From the NCBI RefSeq assembly GCF_024700885.2, contig NZ_CP117016.1: a stretch of DNA of 64,000 bases; one strand, 5' to 3'. A program made the position numbers and the translations under genes. This document shows positions 5,697 to 44,113 of this stretch, piece after piece (the first letter of the stretch is position 1; the number at the start of each line of letters is the position of its first letter). The stretch is from Escherichia coli (lineage in GTDB: Bacteria > Pseudomonadota > Gammaproteobacteria > Enterobacterales > Enterobacteriaceae). Below the pieces are notes generated by a model. The model had not been told where the DNA came from, searched no databases, and was given only the letters and a program-made list of their open reading frames with translations.

Positions 5697-7352
5697 TTAC
5701 TTTTGTAACCACCAGACAGCCTCAAAAGGCCGTAAAGTCATGGCGCAGGGTTGTGGTGAGGCTTCTTCGTAGTTATGCATCACAAGCTGCCAGTTGCCGC
5801 GCATTTGCCCTAGTTGCCAGGGTTGGATCTCACGGCTAAGGTTGGCAATGACCAACAAGGTTTGCCCCTTCCATTCACGGCGATAGCACCACAATACAGG
5901 GCTGTTTGGCAGCAGATCCTGGTAATCGCCCCATGTCAGAACGGCTTCTTGCTTACGCAGTGCGATTAACTTTTGGTAGGTGTAAAACACCGAGGACTCA
6001 TCGGTCAGCGCGGCTTCTACGTTGATTTGTTGATAGTTATCGCCTAGGCCAATCCACGGTTCGCCAGCCGTAAACCCGGCATTATCGCCGTTGGTCCATT
6101 GCATGGGTGTGCGACTGTTGTCACGGGATTTACTGGCGAGGATTGCCAATAACTCGTCGGCATCACGACCATCGTTGCGCAGCTCGGCAAACATATTGAG
6201 GCTCTCCACGTCGCGATAGTCAGTAATGCGCGTGAAATGCGGGTTGGTCATGCCAATCTCTTCGCCCTGGTAGATATACGGCGTTCCCTGCATGCCATGC
6301 AGCACCATCGCCAGCATTTTTGCCGCAGGCACGCGGTATTCACCTTCATCACCAAAGCGAGAAACAATGCGCGGCTGATCGTGGTTACACCAGAACAAGG
6401 CATTCCATGCCACGTTGTGCATTCCTTGTTGCCAGTGGCGGAACAATGTTTTCAACGCTACAAAGTCAGGTTTAGCCAGCGTCCATTTTTCACCACCGGG
6501 ATAATCGACTTTCAGGTGATGAAAATTAAAGGTCATCGACAATTCACTGCCTGTCAGTGCCGCGTATCGCTGGCAATGCTCAAGGCTGGTGGAGGACATT
6601 TCACCTACGGTCATTAACCCGCGTGGCGTAAACACATCGCGGTTCATCTCGTGCAAAAACTCGTGTGCTCGTGGCCCGTCGGTGTAGAAGCGACGCCCGT
6701 CGCCATCCAGGTCATCAGGGAAACGCGGGTCTTTGGAGATCAGATTCACCACATCCAGGCGCAACCCGTCGACCCCACGATCGGCCCAGAACTCACAGAC
6801 TTTTTTCAGCTCTGCGCGTACCGCTGGATTCTCCCAGTTGAGATCCGCCTGTTCTGGTGCAAAGAGATGCAAATAGTACTGTTCGCTTTCCGCATGCCAG
6901 CGCCACGCACTACCGCCAAATTTTGAACGCCAGTTGTTCGGTGGCGTTTCTGGTTCTCCATCGCGCCAGATATAAAACTGGCGGTAAGGGCTTGCTTTGT
7001 TCAGCGCCTCGCGAAACCAGGCATGTTGGGTAGAGGTATGGTTAAACACCATATCGAGAATGATACGAATCCCGCGCGATTTTGCCTGTGTCACCAGTTC
7101 GTCAAAATCGTCCAGCGTGCCGTAGGTGGGATCAATCGCTGTATAGTTCGCTACGTCGTAACCGTTATCGACCTGGGGAGAGACATAAAAGGGGGTTAGC
7201 CAGATGGCATCAACGCCCAGTTTATGCAGATAGTCCAGGCGCTGGATAACGCCACGTAAATCGCCGGTGCCGCTACCCGTGGTGTCCTGAAAACTCTTTG
7301 GATAAATCTGGTAGATAACGCCGTTTTGCCACCAGTGGGGAAGATTAGTCAT
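5697..7352 (-). CDS. treC: Trehalose-6-phosphate hydrolase
   Basis: GH13 alpha-glucosidase sequence; start placed at MTNLPHWWQNGVIYQIY (internal Met of the longer ORF 5697..7499). Confidence 0.92.
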   Translation of the reverse strand: MTNLPHWWQNGVIYQIYPKSFQDTTGSGTGDLRGVIQRLDYLHKLGVDAIWLTPFYVSPQVDNGYDVANYTAIDPTYGTLDDFDELVTQAKSRGIRIILDMVFNHTSTQHAWFREALNKASPYRQFYIWRDGEPETPPNNWRSKFGGSAWRWHAESEQYYLHLFAPEQADLNWENPAVRAELKKVCEFWADRGVDGLRLDVVNLISKDPRFPDDLDGDGRRFYTDGPRAHEFLHEMNRDVFTPRGLMTVGEMSSTSLEHCQRYAALTGSELSMTFNFHHLKVDYPGGEKWTLAKPDFVALKTLFRHWQQGMHNVAWNALFWCNHDQPRIVSRFGDEGEYRVPAAKMLAMVLHGMQGTPYIYQGEEIGMTNPHFTRITDYRDVESLNMFAELRNDGRDADELLAILASKSRDNSRTPMQWTNGDNAGFTAGEPWIGLGDNYQQINVEAALTDESSVFYTYQKLIALRKQEAVLTWGDYQDLLPNSPVLWCYRREWKGQTLLVIANLSREIQPWQLGQMRGNWQLVMHNYEEASPQPCAMTLRPFEAVWWLQK

Positions 7353-34074: not shown

Positions 34075-34203
34075 GAGATTTCCTCCAGTTTCCTGCCTGG
34101 AGTATAGGCAACGGCTGCGCACTCTTCACCGCTAAATTCAGCAGATTGCGAGACGCCTTCCAAAGAGATTTAAGTGCCGGGCGACAGGCACCCGGCAAAG
34201 GGA

Positions 34204-35223
34204 TCAGAAGTCGGCTTTCAGGACCACTCGGTAGCGCGCTTTACCATCGCGTACATGCTGAATGGCGTCGTTAATTTTCGACATCGGGAACAATTCGGTA
34301 GTCGGCGCAACCTTGCTGCGGGCGGCAAAGCGCATCAGCTTACGCAACTCATAAGGCGTGCCGGTAGCAGAACCAGAGACGCTGCGGTCGCCCGCAATTA
34401 ACGTAAAGGCCGGAACAGACAGCGGCGTGAGAACCGCACCGACCGTATGGAAATTACCGCCGTACGTCAGCGCTTCAAAATAAGGCTGCCAGTCGAGGCT
34501 GACGTTGACGGTGTTGATAATGAGATCAAACTGCCCCGCCAGTGCTTTCAGTGCCTGCGGATCGCGGCTATTCACCACTTTATCGGCACCCATCGCCAGT
34601 ACTTCCTGCTCTTTCGCCGGATTCGAACTAAAGGCTGTCACCTCGCATCCCATTGCGTGCAGAAGTTTTATAGCGATATGCCCCAGCCCGCCAATACCAA
34701 TTACCCCAACGCGGCTGGTGGCAGTGATATGGTGCATTAACAGTGGTTTGAAGACCGTGATACCACCGCACAACAGCGGCCCGGCGGACTCGATATCAAT
34801 ATTTTCTGGCAGTGGAATCACCCATTGCCAGTCCGCACGCAACTTCTCGGCAAAGCCACCGCGATTCATAATCGTCGGCACCGCACCTTGCTCACAGTTG
34901 ATCTGATTACCGCTAATACAGGCATCGCAATGCCCGCAGCTACGCGCCGTCCAGCCAATCCCGACACGCTGACCGACCTGCAAACCTTTATCCTGCGCGG
35001 CGCTCCCGAGCGCCACCACGCGACCAATCACCTCATGCCCGGCAACCAGCGGATATTGTGAAAATCCCCATTCGTTATCGATCATCGACAGATCGGAATG
35101 GCAGATCCCGCAGTAATCCACCTGCACTTCAACATCTTGTGGCTTCAGTTCACCGGGATCGTACTCATAAACTTCCAGTTCGCCGCCTGCTTCTTTTGCG
35201 GCATAGCTTTTTATCATCGACAT
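34204..35223 (-). CDS. ahr: NADPH-dependent aldehyde reductase (Zn-dependent MDR family)
   Basis: 339-aa product from [14 protein letters not shown]; Zn-binding GHEVIG and CGxCxxC motifs. Confidence 0.88.
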
Positions 35224-35418
35224 TTTTTGGTCCTTCTCTGGTGTTGTCTGGGAAGTGTAGAGCATGGCAGGGCGGGGTGCCTGGAGTGTGACAAAGGTTA
35301 CACATCGCTGTATGCAATGCTGAAAATTTCAGCACTTAGCGAGGTGCGAGCAAGCTGGCGCTTGCATGGTGGCGTGCGACAGGTATAATCCACAACGTTT
35401 TCCGCATACCTCTTCAGT

Positions 35419-35503
35419 GCCGAAGTGGCGAAATCGGTAGACGCAGTTGATTCAAAATCAACCGTAGAAATACGTGCCGGTTCGAGTCCGGCCTTCGGCA
35501 CCA
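35419..35503 (+). tRNA. leuX: tRNA-Leu (anticodon CAA)
   Basis: 85-nt sequence GCCGAAGTGGCGAAATCGGTAGACGCAGTTGATTCAAAATCAACC...GGTTCGAGTCCGGCCTTCGGCACCA with long variable arm and encoded CCA. Confidence 0.9.
35479..35503 (+). repeat. Island junction (attL-like): leuX 3' end, repeated at 41077-41101
   Basis: 25-bp GGTTCGAGTCCGGCCTTCGGCACCA present twice in direct orientation. Confidence 0.75.
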
Positions 35504-36016
35504 AGTCACTAAATTCCTTACAATACAGGTAGTTAGACAATAAAATCTGTCTCTTTTGCCTGTAAGAAATGCTCTGTTATGTCCCTTGAAAAAGCCGCTG
35601 TGGTTGATAGTGGTAATTGGGATGTTAACTCATAGCGGCGTGTAGTTCCAAGCGTCAAACACGTACTGACTCAACTTGAAAGCTATGACGTAGCCACTGT
35701 CTCTAAACAATCCCAAAAACTTTTAGTGAAGCGCATTTTAGCCCGATGCCCCCGTTCTGCCGCTGTCGCGAGACGCCGCAGGGGATAAACAGGTTTATGG
35801 TGGTCACGGTACTTGCAGACCATATGCAAGCTCTGCCAGCGGTTCGGCCTCGCTCCCCTTGGGTACATGGTCATCCTGATAAGCCTCACTAACTGACATA
35901 ACTGTGATGTAGTCGCCAGAGGCTCCGCTTGTTGTCTTACCACCAACGGGGCTTTATGGATTCTATTGCGGTATGTTTGAAAGTGCGCGGGGGTTCATTC
36001 CCGCGCGTCCGGCGCT

Positions 36017-36931
36017 TTATGGTAAGTATTTAAGTATTTCTGCTGCCCAGTTTACACGGTGGATGACACGGGCATGGTGCAAGTTTCCGTCTAGTATTTC
36101 GGCTTTAGTTAGCTGGGATAACTGCTGCCAATTATTGTTAAGTATATAAGTTGCGTTATTACATTGTGAGCTTTCTAGCACGTAAATGTTTTGGCCTGTG
36201 AACCCAAATATCACGTAGCCTTGGAACCCAGCTTGCCCAACCGCTACGAAATCTGGTTTTTTACTATTGATAAGTTCAAGTCTGCCTTCAACAACAGCGG
36301 TATTGCCCTTTCCCCTGATCTTAATAGCTGAAAGGATTTTTGAGCCGATAGTACTCCAAGGCTGTTGACCCTGAGGCAGGAGGCTCCAGTTTAGTTTTAT
36401 AGATTTACTTTTAACGATGGTATTAAGTTGGTCGTCAACAGTTTCGCACAACCCAAAAAGCTCTAAAAAAAGATTAATGCAGTGAGCCACTAACTCTTTG
36501 TTGTTAGCTGTCAAACTTAGCTTTGGAGAGATGATCAACTTCTCCCCTTGAAGATTCTCTACAATCTTTAACTCTATGCTTGGTGGAGGGGTGAGGATTC
36601 TCTTGTAGCGCTTATACTCAATTTCACGAGTGTCAGTAACTTCTTGAGTTGCGCCCCCTCCGATCCATTGCTTTCTAGTCCATGAAATTTGTCTGTATGC
36701 AGTTTCTTTAGGTGCTGTTTTGTCAGGTACTGATTTGCCATTAGCATTGAATCTGGTTATTGGCCCTAAAATCTTGGGGAGGACTTCTTCACCTAAAGCT
36801 CTTTGACTTGAGAAACCAATAGAGTCCGTTTTCCCCGCATCTGGCAAAGAATGTGCAATGTAGATATCACGGCCATCAAAGTTAGGTATGTAATTATCAA
36901 TATTTCGAATACGCTTTTTCTGAATAAGCAT
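36017..36931 (-). CDS. Hypothetical protein, 304 aa, no family recognised by eye
   Basis: Long ORF with SD (AAGGAA) upstream of ATG; first gene of the island next to leuX. Confidence 0.6.
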   Translation of the reverse strand: MLIQKKRIRNIDNYIPNFDGRDIYIAHSLPDAGKTDSIGFSSQRALGEEVLPKILGPITRFNANGKSVPDKTAPKETAYRQISWTRKQWIGGGATQEVTDTREIEYKRYKRILTPPPSIELKIVENLQGEKLIISPKLSLTANNKELVAHCINLFLELFGLCETVDDQLNTIVKSKSIKLNWSLLPQGQQPWSTIGSKILSAIKIRGKGNTAVVEGRLELINSKKPDFVAVGQAGFQGYVIFGFTGQNIYVLESSQCNNATYILNNNWQQLSQLTKAEILDGNLHHARVIHRVNWAAEILKYLP

Positions 36932-37058
36932 GGATCGTTCCTTTTGATTTTATCTTACTGTTTACATAACCAACCAAGCCGGGCACAATCGAGCCGTTAG
37001 AAACGATAGTGAGGCTAACAATCGTTATGAGTTTGCAGACTCATGGCGGTCATGCTTC

Positions 37059-37094
37059 ATAGACCGGATTCACGCAGGTGACTCCGGTTTTTTT
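37059..37094 (+). terminator. Orphan plus-strand intrinsic terminator
   Basis: About 10-bp stem (CCGGATTCAC / GTGACTCCGG, one mismatch), GCAG loop, followed by 7 T; no plus-strand ORF upstream. Confidence 0.5.
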
Positions 37095-37782
37095 ATGCCC
37101 ATCATTTATACATGAGCACAACATATAGGGTGTGTTAATAAGATTACCCCCTACATGTTCAGCATTCTAGTTAGGATTCTTTGCAGTACAAGGGGTGATT
37201 TTGAGGTTAAATTGAGGTTGTCAAAGGGAAATTTCGACCAACCCTACGTGCCGTAAGGCTTAGGCTGTATGTCAATGTTTCAGAAAAAAAATGAAAATTT
37301 GATCGAGTGCTGATTTCTTTAGCACGAGAACATGAGATCGAACCAAAATATTGCAAAGTTTTGAACAAAACTTGAGCTGCCTCGTGTCTCCATAGCCAAG
37401 ACGAATGCAGTTTAAATAAGCTAAGTCAGCTCTCAAAAGTCCTTTATGACCCGAACCAAAAATTGTACCTCTTAAACCCCCACCGCAAGCGGCTCTCCGG
37501 GGTTTGTGCGCGTGGAGTAATGCGATTGTACTGGGTATGTGCGCACAACCCTCTACAAGCCGCATTCTACCGTTAGCCTATAGCTGAATCCCCGGCTTGA
37601 AAAATTGCACGCTTATGGTTGCCCCTCCCTCAACTGTATAGCTCGCCCGCGCCCCCGTGCGCATGTGCGTGCCCGCGCGTCAGGGGTCGCTGAGAAAACC
37701 CTAAGATTTTGCTCATCCGAGACAACCGTTGCAGGCGCGCGTTGCCGGGGCACACTGTTAGTGTTTGATGGTGTCATCAATC

Positions 37783-37892
37783 GACCGTTTTCTGGCACCT
37801 CCCAATCGCACGCTTTCACACTGTTGGAAAAATAGCCTTGGCTTTTCTGGCAGGCCATCCTAATGTTGGCCTCGTTTTCTGGCAGGGGTCAG
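37783..37892 (+). repeat. Three direct repeats of (C)GTTTTCTGGCA upstream of the recombinase gene
   Basis: cgaccGTTTTCTGGCAcc, ggcTTTTCTGGCAgg, ctcGTTTTCTGGCAgg at about 37789, 37843 and 37875. Confidence 0.4.
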
Positions 37893-37906
37893 ATGGGGAG
37901 ATAACA

Positions 37907-38467
37907 ATGGCAACTTTTGGCTACGGACGTGTTTCGACATCGCAGCAGGATACTGAGAACCAACGGCTGGAGCTTGGGCAGGCTGGGTGGCAAATTGATT
38001 ACTGGTTTGCCGATGTTGTTAGCGGGAAGGTTCCGGCAATGCAACGTAAAGCATTTTCTGAAATGCTCAATAAAATCCGCGATGGTGAAACGTTGGTGGT
38101 AGCGAAGCTTGATCGTCTGGGGCGTGATGCGATTGACGTCCTGCAAACGGTAAGGGCGCTGGCTGACCGTAATATCAAGGTTCTTGTCCACCAGCTTGGT
38201 AACACAGATCTCACTTCTGCCGCTGGGAAGTTGCTATTATCTATGCTCGCCGCGGTTGCGGAGATGGAGCGTGATCTGCTGATTGAGCGCACTCAGGCGG
38301 GACTATCACGAGCAAAAGCCGAAGGTAAGAAATTGGGCAGACCTCCTAAAATCGCGTCAGAAGCCCGTAGAGAGATTTTAGAGAAAAAGAATAGCGGTTT
38401 GAGTATCAGTGCGTTAGCGCGTCAATATGGCGTTTCAAGAGCGACTGTAGCAGCTATTACCGATTGA
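37907..38467 (+). CDS. Small serine recombinase (resolvase/invertase family)
   Basis: 186-aa product from MATFGYGRVSTSQQD (catalytic Ser motif), C-terminal HTH; SD GGGGAG upstream. Confidence 0.85.
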   Translation: MATFGYGRVSTSQQDTENQRLELGQAGWQIDYWFADVVSGKVPAMQRKAFSEMLNKIRDGETLVVAKLDRLGRDAIDVLQTVRALADRNIKVLVHQLGNTDLTSAAGKLLLSMLAAVAEMERDLLIERTQAGLSRAKAEGKKLGRPPKIASEARREILEKKNSGLSISALARQYGVSRATVAAITD

Positions 38468-38480
38468 ATATGGAGAGTTT

Positions 38481-39326
38481 ATGGCTTACACAGCAACTGT
38501 TATCCCTGTAATGATTGCTTCTCCTGGTGATGTCGCTGAAGAGAGACAAGTCATTCGTGAAATGATCCATGAGTGGAATGATATAAATTCAGCTCGTTCA
38601 AAAGTAATGTTGACACCAATTGGATGGGAAACTCATACATCACCCGAATTAGGAGTTAGGCCTCAGAAGTTGATTAATCAAAGATTATTAGTAGATTGTG
38701 ATTTATTAATCGGTGTGTTTTGGACTCGTCTAGGCTCACCGACTGGGAACGAGGCCAGCGGAACAGTCGAAGAAATCCACCGTCATTTGAATGCGGGAAA
38801 ACCGGCAATGATTTACTTTTCCTCAAAGCCTGTTGCCCCTGAAAGCCTTGATAGAGAACAATATGAGTCTCTTAAATTGTTCAAAACTGAGTGCATGCAA
38901 AAGGGATTGATAGAGTCTTTTAATGACTTATCTGATTTCAAAGACAAAGTCCGTAGGCAACTTTCGATAATTATTTCTAGTAGCCCTTATTTGTCTTCTC
39001 TTATATCTACCATTAACAATTCTCCTGATGCGAATACAAGTCAATCTTTGCCAGAAAGTAATTTGTCCGCCGATGCACTCAGTTTGCTGAAATTGGCATG
39101 TGTCGATGATAGCGGAACAATTTATGTGATAAGGCATTTAGGTGGCACGGATATTCAAGCGGGAAATCAATCCTTTGGTGGAAGTTCGGCTAGAGAGGTA
39201 GCCCGTTGGGAGGGCGCACTTAACGAACTGTTATCCTTTGATTATGTGATTGAAAGAGGGGCAAAAGGACAAATGTATTATGTTACTCATAAAGGCTGGA
39301 CATTTCTTGAATCTTTAAATGAATAA
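38481..39326 (+). CDS. Hypothetical protein with DUF4062/TIR-like-looking N-terminal domain, Ser-rich linker and small C-terminal domain
   Basis: 281-aa ORF 14 bp after the recombinase gene; N-terminal pattern VIPVMIASPGDVAEERQ ... CDLLIGVFWTRLGSP ... GKPAMIYF; domain call is by eye only. Confidence 0.55.
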   Translation: MAYTATVIPVMIASPGDVAEERQVIREMIHEWNDINSARSKVMLTPIGWETHTSPELGVRPQKLINQRLLVDCDLLIGVFWTRLGSPTGNEASGTVEEIHRHLNAGKPAMIYFSSKPVAPESLDREQYESLKLFKTECMQKGLIESFNDLSDFKDKVRRQLSIIISSSPYLSSLISTINNSPDANTSQSLPESNLSADALSLLKLACVDDSGTIYVIRHLGGTDIQAGNQSFGGSSAREVARWEGALNELLSFDYVIERGAKGQMYYVTHKGWTFLESLNE

Positions 39327-39362
39327 TTAAATGCGAGGCCATTACATAAGTTTATTTTTGAT

Positions 39363-39391
39363 GTGAGGGTGAATTCCCTCACATTTTTATT
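39363..39391 (+). terminator. Intrinsic terminator after the recombinase/DUF4062-like gene pair
   Basis: Hairpin GTGAGGG-tgaatt-CCCTCAC followed by ATTTTTATT. Confidence 0.6.
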
Positions 39392-39881
39392 CGAAAGAGG
39401 CCGCAATGACTTCTCCTGTTTTTGCGTTGAAAACACAAAAGTATTGAAGCGGAGCTAGCATCCCCAAGCCGTTAACTACCTTAGCTTGTTGCCCAAATGC
39501 CTGAATAATCTTCGCATTCTCATCGTGCCAGAGATAAGTATTAAATACAGGCGCTTCGCTTTCTTGCCACACATGGCGAAACTTCGCTTTCTCATCCATT
39601 ACCTTTTTGCACTCCCTGACCGGGTTATGGTGCGTTTTCGCATAGCATTCCGGGTTGTCATCTGCACATACGATATCTTTTCGTGCTGTCTGATGCTCAG
39701 CACCTACAGCAGAAAAGGCGCATACGCCCAGCACCAATGAGAGAGTGCCCAGAGCACCCCATACAGTTGCGCGTAGCGTGCTGATGTGCTGCTTTGATAC
39801 AGCATGGGCAACTACACTATAACTGGCCCAGCTAATCGCGGCTCCCGCTGCAATCGGTAGTAAAAAGTCTGCTCCCGTCAT
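39387..39881 (-). CDS. Hypothetical small membrane-anchored protein (two N-terminal TM helices, Cys-containing soluble C-terminus)
   Basis: ORF 39387..39938; start preferred at Met 39881 with GAGGG SD; no family recognised. Confidence 0.5.
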   Translation of the reverse strand: MTGADFLLPIAAGAAISWASYSVVAHAVSKQHISTLRATVWGALGTLSLVLGVCAFSAVGAEHQTARKDIVCADDNPECYAKTHHNPVRECKKVMDEKAKFRHVWQESEAPVFNTYLWHDENAKIIQAFGQQAKVVNGLGMLAPLQYFCVFNAKTGEVIAASFE

Positions 39882-40121
39882 GATTCCCTCACTTTCCAAA
39901 CCACATCGCGCCTGATAGCGAACGCTGGTGACGCCCAACCGATGATGATCATCATACTTGTTGGGTTTTAAATGTCACCATTGGTGTTTGTTTTGAATCA
40001 AAAAGGATTGTCATGATACAGCCGATGAATGCTAGTGACTAAGCTCGCTGACGTGAGATTGGATTCAAAATATCTCATATGGAGCGTGGCCTTACAGTGG
40101 TCAAAATTGCACATTCAGTGC

Positions 40122-40586
40122 ATGAAAAAATCCCTGAGAATACAGTTTGGCGAGCGGGTAAAAGAACTGCGCATTGCCACCGGATTGAGCCAGGAGGCCT
40201 TTGCCGATCGGTGCGGGTTTGCACGTAGTTATATGAGCAGAATTGAACGTGGTGGCTCTAATGCGTCTCTGGATGCGATTGAGGTGCTGGCTAACGCTCT
40301 GAGCGTTGAGCCGTGGCAGTTGTTAGCGCCTGGCCCATCTGAAGATAACGACTCGGAACTGTTGGTTCCATACGCAGCCGATGGTTCCTGTTTTCACCCC
40401 GGTTTGGCGAGCACCCGTGATGGCTCGTTTGGCGTAGGTGATAAAGCGGCTCAGAAGCGTTTTGGCACGTTTGCTGAAGCTCTTGAGTATCTTCGTAGCA
40501 TGGAGACAGCAAAATGGCGTAGGCCTAATCCTAGCGGCAACTGGGGTATCGTATCAGCGGTTCGGTGGGACAAACTGAGAAAGTAG
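40122..40586 (+). CDS. XRE-family HTH transcriptional regulator with about 90-aa C-terminal extension
   Basis: Cro/C1-type HTH (LRIATGLSQEAFADRCGFARSYMSRIERG); divergent from the membrane protein gene. Confidence 0.65.
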   Translation: MKKSLRIQFGERVKELRIATGLSQEAFADRCGFARSYMSRIERGGSNASLDAIEVLANALSVEPWQLLAPGPSEDNDSELLVPYAADGSCFHPGLASTRDGSFGVGDKAAQKRFGTFAEALEYLRSMETAKWRRPNPSGNWGIVSAVRWDKLRK

Positions 40587-41076
40587 CTCAAGTGTAAGTT
40601 TATGAATTTTCATGCTGTATGGATGAACAGTATTCATTAGATGCTGATAGTCTTATGTTTCATCAGCCCTTTGTTTCTATAAGAGTGAATAAAACAGCAA
40701 AATGCGGGTGCGTTACGTAGGCGTTACGGTGGCGTTTCGCTTTGGCTCTTAATGGCTTAATTCATATAAATAACATTGAGTTAAATAGTTATTCTGAACA
40801 AGGTCTGCCGGGGTCTAACTGGTTTCAAAATCCGAACGCAGTGGCGTTTATTCAACGTCCACATAGCTGACAAATGTTCTTTCCTCCCGACTCGGCAGAC
40901 CTCCAGAAACATTAAAAGGCAGGTATGGCACGTTGATGTTTTATGCCGCCACGAACACTCGGTTTGATTCCGTCCAGCGGATCAAACTTAATATGTAGCC
41001 CCTAGAACAAAAAGGTCCTACGATTGCTCTCTTAACAGCTAACAGGAACGTGATTACAGCAGGTTATAGAGACTTA

Positions 41077-41101
41077 GGTTCGAGTCCGGCCTTCGGCACC
41101 A
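41077..41101 (+). repeat. Island junction (attR-like): displaced copy of the leuX 3' end
   Basis: Second copy of GGTTCGAGTCCGGCCTTCGGCACCA, followed by the expected tRNA terminator hairpin. Confidence 0.75.
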
Positions 41102-41114
41102 AAAGTATGTAAAT

Positions 41115-41140
41115 AGACCTCAACTGAGGTCTTTTTTTAT
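41115..41140 (+). terminator. Intrinsic terminator following the displaced leuX 3' end
   Basis: GACCTC-aact-GAGGTC followed by TTTTTTT. Confidence 0.55.
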
Positions 41141-41287
41141 GCCTGAAATCCAGTGTTTATCTATCTTTCCCGCTATATTAACTCTCTCAAGGTCAACCGA
41201 TATCAACGTACATCTACCAACATATGTTGGTACAGATGATGGTATTTCCGGTTCGATAATGCTTGTACCAACAGGGAGGGAATACGC

Positions 41288-41878
41288 ATGGCATTAACAG
41301 ATATCAAAGTCAGAGCAGCCAAGCCAACGGATAAGCAATATAAGCTGACTGATGGTGGCGGTATGCATCTGCTTGTCCATCCAAATGGTTCTAAGTACTG
41401 GCGTTTGCAGTACCGTTATGAGGGAAAGCAAAAAATGCTGGCACTTGGGGTTTATCCTGAAATCACACTAGCGGATGCCAGAGTACGTCGTGACGAGGCG
41501 CGTAAGCTGCTTGCGAATGGCGTCGATCCGGGAGACAAAAAGAAAAATGATAAGGTTGAACAGAGTAAAGCACGAACCTTTAAAGAAGTCGCGATTGAGT
41601 GGCATGGCACCAATAAAAAGTGGTCTGAAGATCACGCCCATCGTGTGCTAAAAAGTCTTGAAGATAATCTTTTTGCAGCGCTTGGTGAACGTAATATCGC
41701 TGAGTTAAAAACTCGAGATTTATTAGCACCTATTGTTCCTTTAACCATCCGCAATGGCCAACGGTTTACAGAGCATAATACGAATAGCCGTAGAGCCAGC
41801 CAGTTACGGTGGTCGCGATGGTGTGTCCGCCAGAAAATCACCACGAATACCAGAATCGCGGCACTGACCAGAAAATGA
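41288..41878 (+). pseudogene. P4-type tyrosine integrase, N-terminal fragment (truncated or frameshifted after about 150 aa)
   Basis: N-terminus MALTDIKVRAAKPTDKQYKLTDGGGMHLLVHPNGSKYWRLQYRYEGKQK is typical of P4-family integrases; the catalytic domain is absent. Confidence 0.75.
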
Positions 41879-42372
41879 TAAACAGGAAACACGGGGAGGT
41901 TCACTTTGCTTTCTCCTGTAGTATTTTCTGTAGGTTCTGAACCGGTTCGAGCGGGGTTGTGAGGCTGATGGCAATCCCCGGGCTCTTCCTGCATGTTACA
42001 CTGGTACTGCAACAGGGGGCCTTCGCTCCTATGACATTACTCAGTATTTTCACTACTACACCCCATCTGCCATCCATAACAACCGATTCACCCCCTCGGG
42101 AGGCGTTGTTGCCCGTCACCCGGACAGGCATCGTTATGGACTTCTCTTGTTGCACGATCGATCAATTGTTATGCATGCTGACACCACTACCCCGGTGGGT
42201 ATGACCGATGCCTTTCTCACTCTCTTCCCGGTCATCGTCGGCCTTCCCCGTTATTGTGGCGTGTCGGCACCATCGACGGCATTTCGATGGCTGCTCAGTG
42301 TTCACTCACGTTACGGCCCGCATAACCCATTGACTTCCTGAAGAAGTCGTTTCAGGGAGAGATTCAGCCCTT

Positions 42373-43358
42373 TTGTTACCTCCTGGACCGCTTCCTGTCC
42401 TTCCAGTTGGAGCGAGAGTTAGTCGGGGCGGACTTTCACCGACGGAAAGATCGTGCATTTCAAGGCACACACAACAATATCTGCGAGCGTGCTATCCGTC
42501 CGGTCGTTATGGGACGAAAGGCCTGGTTGTTCGCTGGTTCACTGATGGCCGGGAACCGAGCGGCACAGATAATGAGCCTTCTGGAAACAGCAGTCTGGAG
42601 CCACATGCTTGGCTGACGGACGTCCTAACGCGTCTGCCCGGAGTGGCCGGAGGAGAGGTTGGCAGAGTTACTGCCTCTTGAGGGCTTTACCTTCTTTGGG
42701 TAAGTGATACCTGCCGTCAGGTGTTTGTGCACCGGGCCATAACCTGCAGTTGGGAATTGAACGCCTGACAACAGGAAATGAGCTAGAGCAGTAAACACGC
42801 GGGCTGACAATGGGTCAGAATATGAGTCTGCCCGGCGTTATTCTTGGGGTCAGTACTTCAGATCCAGCCTCCGGTACCAGACTAGCTAGCCCCTACGCAA
42901 CCAAATAAATCAACCATCGTAAGAGTGCAATCGTTCATATACACTGCCGGTGATGGGCGGAAAAATGCGTTAATGTTGAGTTCCTCGAACCCTTACCAAT
43001 TAAGGGACATAGCCAGATACGCAACTGGCTGATGCAAGCAGTCTGATGTCTTTAGATTCGCTGGCCTGCGGGCATGACAATGTCAAACAGTCAAAGATTG
43101 TGGCGTTGACGGTCAGTCTGGGTCGTAAAAACTTCCTGTTCTTCGGCTCTGACCATGGTGGTGAGCGGGGAGCGCTACTGTACAGCCTGATCGGGACGTG
43201 CAAACTGAATGACGTGGATCCAGAAAGCTACCTTCGCCATGTGCTTGGCGTCATAGCAGACTGGCCGGTCAACCGGGTCAGCGAACTGCTTCCGTGGCGT
43301 ATAGCACTGCCAGCTGAATAACACATCCCCGTCAATACGGCCCTCGCTGTACGCTTAC
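42373..43358 (+). mobile_element. IS66-family transposase remnants (two C-terminal fragments), right end at about 43358
   Basis: Fragments with GRKAWLFAGS and LGRKNFLFFGSDHGGERGALLYSLIGTCKLNDVDPESYLRHVL; terminal ...ACGCTTAC matches the IS66 right end at 57116. Confidence 0.55.
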
Positions 43359-43434
43359 GATTAGTGGTGGTGTCTTCCAGTGCGAGGAGCAGCGGATGAG
43401 CCTCACATGCCCTTGCAGTGGCGGTAAATCCGGC

Positions 43435-43815
43435 TTAGGCAATGGCTTCCGGGGACACAGACGGGTTACGTATCAGGCGGTACGCACTTTCAACCTGAGC
43501 AGTGGAGTGGGATGATTTCACAATAGAAAGACCTGCATGCTGAGCGAGAGAAGAGGCCAGTGACACAAGGCGTCGTGTACGACGCGGATCACCGAGACGG
43601 GCATGTCCAAACTGCTCGTTATCCCATGAATAACAATCAGAAAGTACCATAACAGACCCGAAGAAAATGAAATATAAGAGAAGATCAACGGGTGAAGAAA
43701 AAGTTCAAAAAATCGCTGCCGGGGAGGAAGGAAACTACCGAATGGAAAGAGTCCCCCTAAAGCAGACTGACAGACATCACAAATCCCCGGGTGGGGATTT
43801 GTGTATAAGAGACAG
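43435..43815 (-). mobile_element. IS4-family (IS50-like) element remnant: terminal inverted repeat plus transposase N-terminal fragment
   Basis: Fragment ARLGDPRRTRRLVSLASSLAQHAGLSIVKSS...AYRLIRNPSVSPEAI resembles the IS50 transposase N-terminus; end sequence CTGTCTCTTATACACAAA at 43798-43815. Confidence 0.55.
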
Positions 43816-44113
43816 CCTGATAGGGGGGCGCATACATTATGCATACATACTCTCGGATATTGTAAAAGTTTTTTATATAATTACTAAGTTAGCTACCATC
43901 AATAAAATATTGACGTTAGCAGGTAACATCAACTTAATATATAAAAATATTCTTAGGTGAAAGTAACTGTTCAAGATAAAATAAAATCATCGCTTAAAAA
44001 GAAAAACACTCTCTTTGTTATATACGTACTCTGATAAATGCCAGATAAAACTATTAATTTTCATAAAAATATAATGCCATATATTATGATGCTATACATC
44101 TTACATATTCAAT

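What the first reader, a model, noticed from the sequence alone, without database searches (positions are those of the whole stretch)
35479..41140. Integrase-less 5.6-kb island inserted at leuX, in tandem with an older P4-type island
The 25-bp leuX 3' end occurs twice in direct orientation (35479-35503 and 41077-41101), and the second copy carries the native tRNA terminator hairpin. That is the signature of site-specific integration into leuX. The bracketed 5.6 kb has no tyrosine integrase; the only integrase (a truncated P4-type int) lies outside it, just after the second repeat, so this looks like a newer element inserted in front of an older island. Its cargo is an orphan 304-aa protein, a serine recombinase plus DUF4062-like protein operon, a small membrane protein and an XRE regulator. 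None is a housekeeping function and none is a family I can assign a known system to, which is the profile of an undescribed defence or phase-variable module.
Basis: partly seen in the sequence, partly recalled or inferred. Interest (0 to 1): 0.8.

Follow-up and report, generated by a model that had tools for sequence, protein, structure and literature searches.

The report
Integrase-less hybrid island at leuX
The 5.6-kb insert at the leuX tRNA gene is real, but it is a leftover fused from two different mobile elements, joined at the binding site of a small DNA recombinase so that both integrases were lost; it still carries one gene of a recently described anti-phage family and one widespread gene of unknown function.

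Summary
leuX (35419-35503) and an exact 26-nt copy of its 3' end (41077-41102) bracket 5.6 kb. E. coli K-12 is a clean empty site.

The island is not a self-contained new element but a chimera.
- Left arm (35505 to about 37771): the leuX-proximal end of a satellite-like element that encodes a capsid protein. It is 98% identical to leuX-adjacent DNA in Kluyvera and Enterobacter.
- Right arm (37782-41102): 99% identical to the distal half of the SpLE5-type leuX element.

The joint (37772-37797) is a hybrid 12-2-12 site. One half-site comes from each parent, and it sits at the head of a res-like repeat array upstream of the serine recombinase gene. A tandem array of the required kind exists in E. 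coli E1739. A deletion between the two recombinase sites explains the loss of both integrases.

The cargo:
- The DUF4062 protein has a TIR-like domain, a conserved Glu97 and a winged-helix tail. Two 2026 preprints show that DUF4062 family proteins act in anti-phage defence by depleting NAD+.
- The 304-aa "orphan" has more than 700 homologues in Bacteria and Archaea. It sits in a slot that holds defence genes in sister elements. Its function is unknown.

Phase variation is not supported.

The parts
35419..35503 (+). leuX, tRNA-Leu(CAA); its 3' end is the left attachment repeat
   Evidence: ARAGORN; Rfam tRNA at 59 bits
35479..35504 (+). Left 26-nt direct repeat (attL core)
   Evidence: Exact copy of 41077-41102
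35505..35969 (+). Conserved 460-bp arm that follows a leuX repeat in many genomes; the proximal end of the B-type (satellite-like) element
   Evidence: 97-98% identical in L001, L002 and L006, always directly after a leuX repeat; 98% identical in Kluyvera and Enterobacter
36017..36931 (-). 304-aa protein of an uncharacterised but widespread family, sitting in the B-type cargo slot
37475..37637 (.). 163-bp non-coding block shared by B-type elements
   Evidence: 92.6% identical to L002, and the part tested (37600-37634) is 100% identical to L023 and L024
37635..37769 (.). 135 bp of G+C-rich sequence found only in genomes with this island; presumably specific to the unknown B-type parent
   Evidence: No match in any fetched locus or in other E. 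coli genomes
37772..37797 (+). Hybrid recombinase crossover site, TGTCATCAATCG-AC-CGTTTTCTGGCA; the junction of the two arms
   Evidence: The 14-nt GGTGTCATCAATCG (37770-37783), which contains the left half-site, matches the site upstream of the Kluyvera B-type recombinase 14 of 14. The right half and everything downstream equals the SpLE5-type site CGCCAACAAACG-AC-CGTTTTCTGGCA
37841..37884 (+). Two further direct copies of (C/G)TTTTCTGGCA; res-like accessory sites overlapping the recombinase promoter region
   Evidence: Three exact 10-mers within 100 bp, conserved across SpLE5-type elements and plasmids
37907..38467 (+). Small serine recombinase of the resolvase/invertase family; backbone gene of the SpLE5-type element
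   Evidence: PHROG 125 at 1e-55; gamma-delta resolvase at 1e-25; identical protein WP_000190110.1 in L001
38481..39326 (+). DUF4062 protein: TIR-like domain, helical stalk and winged-helix-like C-terminal domain; cargo cassette in the slot 38464-39383
39387..39881 (-). 164-aa membrane protein; SpLE5-type and plasmid backbone gene
   Evidence: PHROG 20749 at 8e-102; RefSeq annotation; present on plasmids L009 and L021
40122..40586 (+). XRE-family helix-turn-helix regulator (counterpart of ECs5252); backbone gene
   Evidence: PADLOC control-protein and RstR-like matches; 90% identical to the O157 element; PMC1890555
41077..41102 (+). Right 26-nt direct repeat (attR core), followed by the native leuX terminator at 41115-41140
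41288..41749 (+). Truncated P4-type integrase (intB counterpart) that heads the older island; outside the insert
   Evidence: NCBIfam PRK09692, residues 3-156 only; annotated as a pseudogene in strain ST648; 99.7% identical to K-12 as far as 41734

Best explanation
The island is a non-autonomous chimera left behind by recombination between two elements that had integrated in tandem at leuX.

Element B is satellite-like. It encodes a major head protein, a helicase and an HNH nuclease, and its integrase lies at the far end. It contributes leuX-attL, the 460-bp arm, the 304-aa cargo gene and the left half of a recombinase site. Element A is the SpLE5 type: integrase next to the tRNA, then NIPSNAP, DUF1643, a serine recombinase, a cargo slot, a membrane protein, an XRE regulator and attR. 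It contributes the right half of the site and everything downstream.

Both parents carry a small serine recombinase with a res-like array upstream of its gene. A crossover between the two head sites of a leuX-B-repeat-A-repeat array would excise the right arm of B, the middle repeat and the left arm of A. That removes both integrases and leaves what is seen here.

The remnant keeps intact att repeats, so an integrase supplied in trans could in principle move it; this step is inferred. Its likely selective value is its cargo. The DUF4062 protein most probably acts as a phage-triggered NADase that causes abortive infection, by family analogy. The 304-aa protein is a candidate single-gene defence factor, by position and neighbourhood only. 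The recombinase, membrane protein and regulator are element housekeeping, not a defence operon.
For: Shown:
- Precise insertion relative to K-12.
- The right arm, 37775-41102, is 99.2% identical to the SpLE5-type element of strain FAHZZU6014, which has a 636-aa integrase next to leuX. The same architecture occurs in O157 (SpLE5, PMC1890555, PMC8190617), 401651 and DG342-2.
- The left arm, 35332-37634 or 37662, is 98.2-98.3% identical to leuX-adjacent DNA in Enterobacter chuandaensis and Kluyvera ascorbata. In Kluyvera it runs on into an element with its own recombinase and a 614-aa ORF, the same size as the DEAD/DEAH helicase of strain 550.
- The E. coli 550 relative has a major head protein (8e-70), an HNH nuclease and a 408-aa integrase next to the distal repeat.
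- The junction is a 12-2-12 hybrid site. Its left half matches the Kluyvera B site and its right half matches the A site. Identity to A begins inside the site.
- Three TTTTCTGGCA repeats lie within 100 bp upstream of the recombinase gene. An analogous CTTTTGAGAC array lies upstream of the Leclercia recombinase.
- A second independent mosaic, DG342-2, breaks at the same site.
- A tandem leuX-B-like-repeat-A-repeat-P4-int array exists in E. coli E1739.
- Cargo: DUF4062 evidence, plus bioRxiv 10.64898/2026.05.01.722283 and 10.64898/2026.06.25.731849. Slot alleles are defence candidates or known systems. Homologues of the 304-aa protein lie beside methyltransferase-helicase, SIR2 and integrase genes.
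Against: - The direct B-type parent has not been found. The 135 bp at 37635-37769 has no match anywhere.
- The Kluyvera site has central TT, whereas the hybrid and the A site have AC. A clean serine-recombinase exchange between exactly those two sites would mismatch.
- The two recombinases are only 47% identical, so cross-recognition is not expected a priori.
- The B-like element in E1739 carries its recombinase in the opposite orientation, so that array is a precedent and not the parent.
- The 14-nt half-site match has E = 0.29 against all fetched loci. It is significant only because of where it lies.
- No experiment links this DUF4062 lineage or the 304-aa protein to defence. The sequences of the tested Swarozyc proteins could not be obtained, and the residue landmarks of KpSwz (W176, W238/Y239) are absent here.
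Confidence: 0.66

Rival explanations
1. The chimera arose by an ordinary illegitimate or IS-mediated deletion within a tandem array, or by homologous recombination. The recombinase played no part, and the position of the joint at the recombinase site is a coincidence.
For: Other rearrangements nearby look IS-associated. In strain C 691-04A the element is cut at 37840, next to transposase fragments, and PO06021 has a deletion inside the DUF4062 gene. The central dinucleotides of the only known B site (TT) and the A site (AC) differ. The recombinases are 47% identical.
Against: Both ends of the joint fall within one 26-bp site at half-site resolution. The 14-nt GGTGTCATCAATCG, which contains the left half-site, is the motif found upstream of a B-type recombinase. 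An independent mosaic breaks at the same place. There is no IS end or extended homology at the joint.
Confidence: 0.17
2. The 5.6 kb is a complete, minimal mobile element in its own right. It would be inserted at leuX by an integrase supplied in trans, and the recombinase, DUF4062 protein, membrane protein and regulator would form one functional defence or phase-variable module.
For: It has perfect 26-nt repeats, a clean empty site in K-12, and is conserved as a unit in 78-79 genomes.
Against: - The two halves have separate, nearly identical relatives in elements that carry integrases.
- The 79 carriers are about 100% identical, which fits one lineage and not repeated insertion.
- The gene after the recombinase varies, and DUF4062 homologues stand alone elsewhere.
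- No inverted repeats and no inverted isoforms were found.
Confidence: 0.1
3. The serine recombinase itself inserted the right-hand module into a resident B-type element, acting as a small integrase or cassette-capture enzyme. No tandem intermediate was involved.
For: The same DUF1643-recombinase-membrane-HTH module occurs on MOBH plasmids. A plasmid-to-chromosome fusion at the site followed by loss of the plasmid part is therefore conceivable.
Against: The right arm ends in the SpLE5-type attR and the leuX repeat, exactly as in integrated A elements. A plasmid-derived module would not carry these. Small resolvases strongly favour intramolecular deletion (general knowledge of the family).
Confidence: 0.07

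Closest known systems
SpLE5 of E. coli O157:H7 Sakai (S-loop 286 / O-island 172; ECs5242-ECs5252)
   Same: It integrates at leuX in tandem with a second island headed by a P4-type integrase. It shares the serine recombinase (83% amino-acid identity), the XRE regulator and the right end (90% nucleotide identity), and the same 26-nt repeat (PMC1890555, PMC8190617).
   Different: The window lacks the SpLE5 integrase, NIPSNAP and DUF1643 genes, which are replaced by foreign DNA. The cargo after the recombinase also differs: the DUF4062 and membrane genes here, two hypothetical genes in O157.
Cis-mobilisable elements (CIMEs) and accretion of tandem integrative elements at tRNA genes
   Same: It is flanked by att repeats, has no integrase, and derives from tandemly integrated elements (general knowledge of the concept; structure shown).
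   Different: In this island the loss of the integrases appears to come from a crossover between two resolvase sites inside the elements, not from decay or from att x att recombination. Mobilisation in trans has not been tested.
res/resolvase systems of Tn3-family transposons and plasmids (gamma-delta, Sin, beta)
   Same: The enzyme is a small serine recombinase (gamma-delta resolvase at 1e-25). A roughly 115-bp array of three sites lies directly upstream of its gene, with a palindromic 12-2-12 head site furthest from the gene. Mosaic breakpoints fall at that site.
   Different: It sits in integrative islands and MOBH plasmids, not in a transposon. Site sequences are unrelated to known res sites. 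Binding and crossover have not been demonstrated. The exchange appears to involve sites of two different recombinases.
Swarozyc / Evangelion DUF4062 single-gene anti-phage systems (2026 preprints)
   Same: It is a single gene with an N-terminal DUF4062 TIR-like domain, an invariant Glu at the start of helix C (E97), a helical stalk and a small C-terminal winged-helix-like auxiliary domain. It is carried as cargo on a mobile element.
   Different: It belongs to a different lineage from KpSwz: the landmark residues W176 and W238/Y239 are absent. Neither NADase activity nor a phage trigger has been tested for this protein.
Defence-gene hotspots of phage satellites (P4-like elements, PICIs)
   Same: A variable slot between conserved arms of a satellite-like element holds different defence genes in different strains: PDC-S32/AbiJ-NTD4, PDC-M04A/DUF3800 or an Eco29kI RM system.
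   Different: The host element is neither P4-like nor a described PICI. It has a major head protein, a DEAD-box helicase, an HNH nuclease and a serine recombinase. Its satellite status is inferred.

Membership tests
tRNA-targeting integrative island (site-specific insertion at the leuX 3' end) | Direct repeat of the tRNA 3' end at both boundaries, and a precise empty site in a related genome | tested here: met
   26-nt exact repeat. The K-12 flanks abut and overlap by the repeat.
tRNA-targeting integrative island (site-specific insertion at the leuX 3' end) | Its own tyrosine integrase within the boundaries | tested here: not met
   No integrase ORF or family match in 35505-41076. Integrases are present in the full-length A and B relatives.
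SpLE5-type leuX element | Backbone of integrase, NIPSNAP, DUF1643, serine recombinase, cargo, (membrane protein), XRE regulator and attR | tested here: inconclusive
   The right half, from the recombinase to attR, is present at 99% identity to L001. The left half, from the integrase to DUF1643, is absent and replaced.
Small serine recombinase with res-type site (resolvase) | Resolvase-type catalytic domain plus C-terminal HTH, about 185 aa | tested here: met
   Gamma-delta and Tn3 resolvases and Gin at 1e-22 to 1e-25 over residues 1-183; PHROG 125.
Small serine recombinase with res-type site (resolvase) | Multi-subsite binding array next to the gene, with a dyad-symmetric crossover site | tested here: met
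   Three exact TTTTCTGGCA repeats. The head site has 8-10 of 12 palindromic matches in five of the six A-type copies tested (6 of 12 in L007), p = 3e-3 to 4e-5. It is conserved across elements. This is sequence evidence only.
Small serine recombinase with res-type site (resolvase) | Demonstrated binding and strand exchange at the site | not testable with these tools
   Needs biochemistry or in vivo recombination assays.
DNA invertase / phase-variation switch | Inverted recombination sites flanking an invertible segment, and both orientations seen in populations | tested here: not met
   All site repeats are direct. No flanking inverted repeat was found. All 78 full-length genome matches are single collinear pieces.
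DUF4062 defence family (Swarozyc / Evangelion) | DUF4062 TIR-like fold with a conserved catalytic Glu | tested here: met
DUF4062 defence family (Swarozyc / Evangelion) | Single gene with a C-terminal auxiliary (sensor) domain, HTH/winged-helix in Swarozyc | tested here: met
   The model shows a stalk at 150-179 and an alpha/beta domain at 197-281, with a weak HTH_45 match at 247-281. Homologues stand alone.
DUF4062 defence family (Swarozyc / Evangelion) | Sequence membership in a tested lineage (KpSwz, EcSwz, Eva01-04) | tested here: inconclusive
   The tested sequences (UniParc ids) could not be retrieved. KpSwz landmark residues are absent from this lineage. No solved structure matches by sequence.
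DUF4062 defence family (Swarozyc / Evangelion) | Phage-triggered NAD+ depletion and protection | not testable with these tools
   Needs plaque assays and NAD+ measurement.
Known anti-phage systems (PADLOC-DB 2.0) for the 304-aa protein | Match to any defence-system profile | tested here: not met
   No PADLOC, NCBIfam, PHROG or Pfam family matches. Three AFDB relatives are auto-labelled as restriction endonucleases, without evidence.

The most novel reading that the evidence does not exclude
Two readings remain open.

First, small serine recombinases carried by unrelated leuX-targeting elements may recombine each other's res-like sites. Tandemly integrated elements would then swap whole arms. 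This would be a resolvase-driven route that shuffles defence cargo between islands, satellites and plasmids, and that produces integrase-less but att-flanked islands in a single step.

Second, the 304-aa protein may be the founding member of an undescribed single-gene anti-phage family. It has no detectable fold relatives among solved structures and is spread across Bacteria and Archaea.
Probability: 0.3. Interest if true: 0.65.

Novelty: new variant of a known kind. Interest (0 to 1): 0.45.

Why it matters
leuX is one of the busiest integration sites in E. coli. How stacked islands there exchange and lose parts shapes which virulence and defence genes a lineage keeps.

The hybrid recombinase site gives a concrete, testable mechanism for two things. 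It would explain how integrase-less islands arise in one step, and how cargo arms move between an island family (SpLE5 type), a satellite-like family and MOBH plasmids that share the recombinase module.

In practice, the locus offers two ready test genes. One is a member of an untested lineage of the newly described DUF4062 NADase defence family. The other is a 304-aa protein with more than 700 homologues, no annotation and a confident predicted structure, sitting in a slot that otherwise holds RM, AbiJ-like and other candidate defence genes.

The island as such is ordinary for E. coli and is confined to one lineage, about 1.5% of complete genomes.

Tried and rejected
- Homologous recombination between the two recombinase genes was rejected. 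The B-type recombinases are only 28-47% identical to the one in the window.
- The third repeat copy (40961-40986, 69%) was considered as a relic att site. It was rejected because it is a self-complementary hairpin.
- Phase variation was rejected.
- Recombinase plus DUF4062 as a conserved two-gene system was rejected from the neighbourhoods of three distant homologues and from the slot variants.
- The Rfam scan of the island found only the tRNA.
- Folding of the conserved non-coding blocks gave unremarkable z-scores of -2.0, -0.8, -1.0 and -0.4.
- Pfam on all 40 aligned homologues found nothing.
- Searching the literature by protein accession found nothing.
- I could not retrieve the sequences of the tested Swarozyc proteins to test lineage membership.
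- Searches for the unique 135 bp at 37635-37769 found no parent: megablast against E. coli genomes, the more sensitive blastn against plasmids, and a short-word blastn against the fetched loci.

Full report
**1.

ARAGORN finds a single tRNA in the window, tRNA-Leu(CAA), at 35419-35503. Its last 25 nt plus one base form a 26-nt repeat, GGTTCGAGTCCGGCCTTCGGCACCAA. The repeat occurs exactly twice, at 35479-35504 and 41077-41102.

The second copy is followed by a hairpin and T-run at 41115-41140. In E. coli K-12 MG1655, window 34204-35504 and window 41077-41734 are adjacent and overlap by exactly the 26-nt repeat, and the same terminator follows leuX directly. K-12 is therefore a clean empty site for a 5,598-bp insertion.

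No tyrosine integrase lies between the repeats. A P4-type integrase fragment begins at 41288; only residues 3-156 match the profile, and it is annotated as a pseudogene in strain ST648. G+C content drops to about 40-43% in parts of the insert.

The complete arrangement is present, collinear and about 100% identical, in 78-79 of 5426 complete E. coli genomes.

**2. The insert is a chimera of two different leuX elements**

*Right arm.* Window 37775-41102 is 99.2% identical to the distal half of an element in strain FAHZZU6014 (locus L001). That element reads: leuX, 636-aa site-specific integrase, NIPSNAP, DUF1643, serine recombinase, DUF4062 protein, membrane protein, XRE regulator, leuX repeat.

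The same architecture recurs, with a 636-649-aa integrase next to leuX and a P4-type integrase after the distal repeat, in:
- O157:H7 (L004),
- strain 401651 (L007),
- strain DG342-2 (L008).

The O157 version is the published prophage-like element SpLE5 (S-loop 286 / OI 172, ECs5242-5252), which lies between tRNA-Leu and the int of SpLE6 (PMC1890555, PMC8190617). I call this family A. A test query that included the junction of leuX with the integrase gene matched 891 genomes, most of them over that junction.

*Left arm.* Window 35505-35969 (a 460-bp arm) and 37475-37637 (a 163-bp block) match the leuX-proximal end of a roughly 15-kb element in E. coli strain 550 (L002, L003). That element runs from leuX through:
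- three cargo genes,
- a serine recombinase,
- a DEAD-box helicase,
- a major head protein (PHROG 267, 8e-70),
- an HNH endonuclease,
- an endonuclease VII-like protein,
- a 408-aa integrase,

and then reaches a leuX repeat followed by an intact P4-type integrase. I call this family B. Its content suggests a phage satellite; that is inference.

A scan of one genome per species found the whole left arm, including a 100% identical 304-aa protein. It is 98.2-98.3% identical at the nucleotide level and lies directly after leuX in Enterobacter chuandaensis and Kluyvera ascorbata. In Kluyvera it continues into a B-type element with its own recombinase and a 614-aa ORF of the same size as the strain 550 helicase. 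A Leclercia relative has the 304-aa gene next to a resolvase, a capsid gene and an integrase.

The 460-bp arm always follows a leuX repeat. It comes after leuX itself, after an A element in L001, and after a P4-like satellite in L006.

**3. The joint is a hybrid recombinase site**

Upstream of the recombinase gene lie three exact direct copies of TTTTCTGGCA within 100 bp, at 37788, 37843 and 37875. They are conserved in all A elements and in plasmid copies.

The copy furthest from the gene is the right half of a 12-2-12 dyad:

| Source | Site | Palindromic matches |
|---|---|---|
| L001, L009, L021 | CGCCAACAAACG-AC-CGTTTTCTGGCA | 9 of 12 |
| L004 (O157) | CGCCAACAAACG-AC-CGTTTTCCGGCA | 8 of 12 |
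| L008 | TGCCAATAAACG-AC-CGTTTTCTGGCA | 10 of 12 |
| L007 | CGCCAACAAACG-AC-TGTTTTCCGACA | 6 of 12 |

Apart from L007, the chance probability for these is 3e-3 to 4e-5.

This layout is that of a res site: a crossover site at the far end and accessory sites over the promoter. The protein's best solved relatives are the gamma-delta and Tn3 resolvases and Gin. The Leclercia B-type recombinase has its own analogous array built on CTTTTGAGAC and GTCTTAAAAGG.

In the window the site reads TGTCATCAATCG-AC-CGTTTTCTGGCA (37772-37797). Identity to family A starts at CGAC, inside the site. The left half-site differs from the A half-site at four positions. The 14-nt GGTGTCATCAATCG (37770-37783), which contains it, matches 14 of 14 the motif found upstream of the Kluyvera B-type recombinase, where the site is TGTCATCAATCG-TT-CGATTCTTGCTA.

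The joint is thus one half-site from each family. DG342-2 is a second mosaic whose left flank diverges at the same site.

**4. A tandem precedent exists**

A synthetic query joining the B right end, the repeat and the A left end found two records with that junction in one piece. In E. coli E1739 (L026) the locus reads:
- leuX;
- a B-like element: cytosine methyltransferase plus Eco29kI-type endonuclease, a recombinase, an HTH protein, KwaA and KwaB, and an integrase;
- an exact repeat;
- an A element: integrase pseudogene, NIPSNAP, DUF1643, recombinase, DUF4062 protein, membrane protein and XRE regulator;
- the position of a third repeat (no copy within two mismatches was found there), then a P4-type integrase.

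A crossover between the head sites of the two recombinase arrays in an array of this kind, with both arrays in the same orientation as in the window, would delete B-right, the repeat and A-left, including both integrases. That gives the observed structure in one step.

Caveats:
- The actual B parent is unknown. The 135 bp at 37635-37769 matches nothing.
- The Kluyvera site has central TT, not AC.
- The recombinases are 47% identical.
- In E1739 the B-like recombinase is inverted.

I therefore put the recombinase-mediated version at about two in three. A coincidental illegitimate deletion is the main rival.

**5. Backbone and cargo**

Comparison of A elements shows a cargo slot bounded by the recombinase stop codon (about 38463) and the membrane-gene stop codon (about 39384). 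The slot holds:
- DUF4062 here and in L001, L007 and L026;
- an HNH endonuclease in L008;
- two hypothetical genes in O157, where the variable stretch also replaces the membrane gene and runs to the regulator gene (about 40062);
- about 400 bp with no annotated gene on plasmid p1292.

The backbone DUF1643-recombinase-membrane-HTH also occurs on MOBH-type plasmids of E. coli and E. fergusonii. This fits a multimer-resolution role for the recombinase.

DUF4062 homologues (more than 2100, about 55% identical) stand alone in unrelated contexts without a recombinase. The recombinase and the DUF4062 gene are therefore neighbours, not partners.

The B slot after the 460-bp arm holds, in different strains:
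- AbiJ-NTD4 (PADLOC PDC-S32, 6e-104);
- DUF3800 (PDC-M04A, 1.5e-21);
- an Eco29kI-type RM system;
- the 304-aa gene in the window.

A further A slot holds DUF2971 (PDC-S31).

**6. The two cargo proteins**

*DUF4062 protein (281 aa).*
- It matches Pfam DUF4062 weakly and the N-terminus of PADLOC candidate PDC-S60 at 1e-26.
- A helical stalk and an alpha/beta domain with winged-helix character follow.
- E97 and E98 are invariant in 30 homologues.

Two 2026 preprints show that DUF4062 is a TIR-like NADase. Single-gene DUF4062-plus-auxiliary-domain proteins (Swarozyc from Klebsiella and E. coli; Evangelion from plasmids) protect against phage by NAD+ depletion and abortive infection. In KpSwz the catalytic residue is E97 and a winged-helix auxiliary domain senses the phage portal (bioRxiv 10.64898/2026.05.01.722283 and 10.64898/2026.06.25.731849).

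The window protein shares this architecture. It lacks KpSwz landmark residues, and I could not obtain the tested sequences. It is best called a member of the DUF4062 defence family from an untested lineage.

*304-aa protein.*
- It has at least 722 homologues, 40-47% identical over their full length, from Enterobacterales to Kosmotoga, Methanobacterium and cyanobacteria.
- It has no Pfam, PADLOC, NCBIfam or PHROG match.
- Its AFDB relatives are uncharacterised; three are machine-labelled as restriction endonucleases.
- Distant homologues lie next to a methyltransferase and helicase (Kosmotoga) and next to SIR2, an HATPase and an integrase (Methanobacterium).

A defence role, perhaps as a nuclease, is a reasonable guess from position and neighbourhood. 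Nothing more can be said.

**7. Verdict**

The rest of the interpretation needs correcting:
- The insert is a decayed hybrid of two known kinds of leuX element and not a new kind of element.
- Its "operon" is a backbone gene followed by a cargo gene.
- One cargo gene belongs to a family now described as anti-phage.
- The "orphan" is a large uncharacterised family.
- Phase variation is unsupported.

The two points of real interest are the half-site-resolution hybrid recombinase site, which suggests resolvase-driven arm exchange between stacked islands, and the 304-aa family as a candidate defence gene. Both are testable with simple experiments.

Noticed in passing
window 37118-37329: An unannotated non-coding stretch of about 200 bp is conserved at 75-78% on many Klebsiella, Enterobacter, Citrobacter and Kosakonia plasmids, for example K. 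pneumoniae plasmid NZ_CP143910.1 (L020 4001-4210). There is no Rfam match, and the plus-strand RNA fold has z = -2.0.
   Followed up: partly
window 37475-37637: A 163-bp non-coding block is shared by B-type elements of E. coli 550 (92.6%) and of Kluyvera and Enterobacter (about 98% as part of the left arm), while the sequences on either side vary. Fold z-scores are unremarkable (-1.0 and -0.4).
   Followed up: partly
window 35505-35969: A 460-bp arm with no convincing ORF always follows a leuX repeat, whatever lies upstream: leuX itself, an SpLE5-type element, or a P4-like satellite. It is also 90% conserved on an Enterobacter hormaechei plasmid (H117). It may be the attL-side arm recognised by the B-type integrase.
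   Followed up: partly
window 40961-40986: The 69% third copy of the repeat is a self-complementary hairpin, GTTTGAT(T)CCG…CGGATCAAAC, 116 bp before attR. It is conserved in the SpLE5-type right end and its function is unknown.
   Followed up: partly
L026 (E. coli E1739, NZ_CM180506.1 4730356-4751480): A triple tandem array at leuX carries an Eco29kI-type RM system, Kiwa (KwaAB), a DUF4062 gene and a retron-like reverse transcriptase in three successive elements. It is a compact example of defence stacking by accretion.
   Followed up: partly
L018 (E. coli C 691-04A) 6998-7063: An SpLE5-type element is cut off at the position equivalent to window 37840, just before the second recombinase-site repeat. 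The cut abuts transposase fragments and deletes everything up to the IS30/IS3 cluster seen in L001.
   Followed up: no
L005 (E. coli PO06021) 11225: In this strain the island is identical up to window 38734. It is then fused, inside the DUF4062 gene, to CoA-transferase, HMG-CoA lyase and MFS transporter genes. This is a later deletion in the same lineage.
   Followed up: no
window 41750-43900: After the truncated P4-type integrase come fragments of a phosphoethanolamine transferase gene and of IS66-family and IS4/Tn5-family transposase genes. The older island is heavily decayed.
   Followed up: no
window 34123-34203 compared with L002 and L026: In the window, yjgR is followed directly by ahr. 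Strain 550, E1739 and K-12 carry the idnK/idnDOTR L-idonate genes in this region; in 550 and E1739 the whole cluster lies between yjgR and ahr. The idn cluster is therefore absent from this lineage.
   Followed up: no
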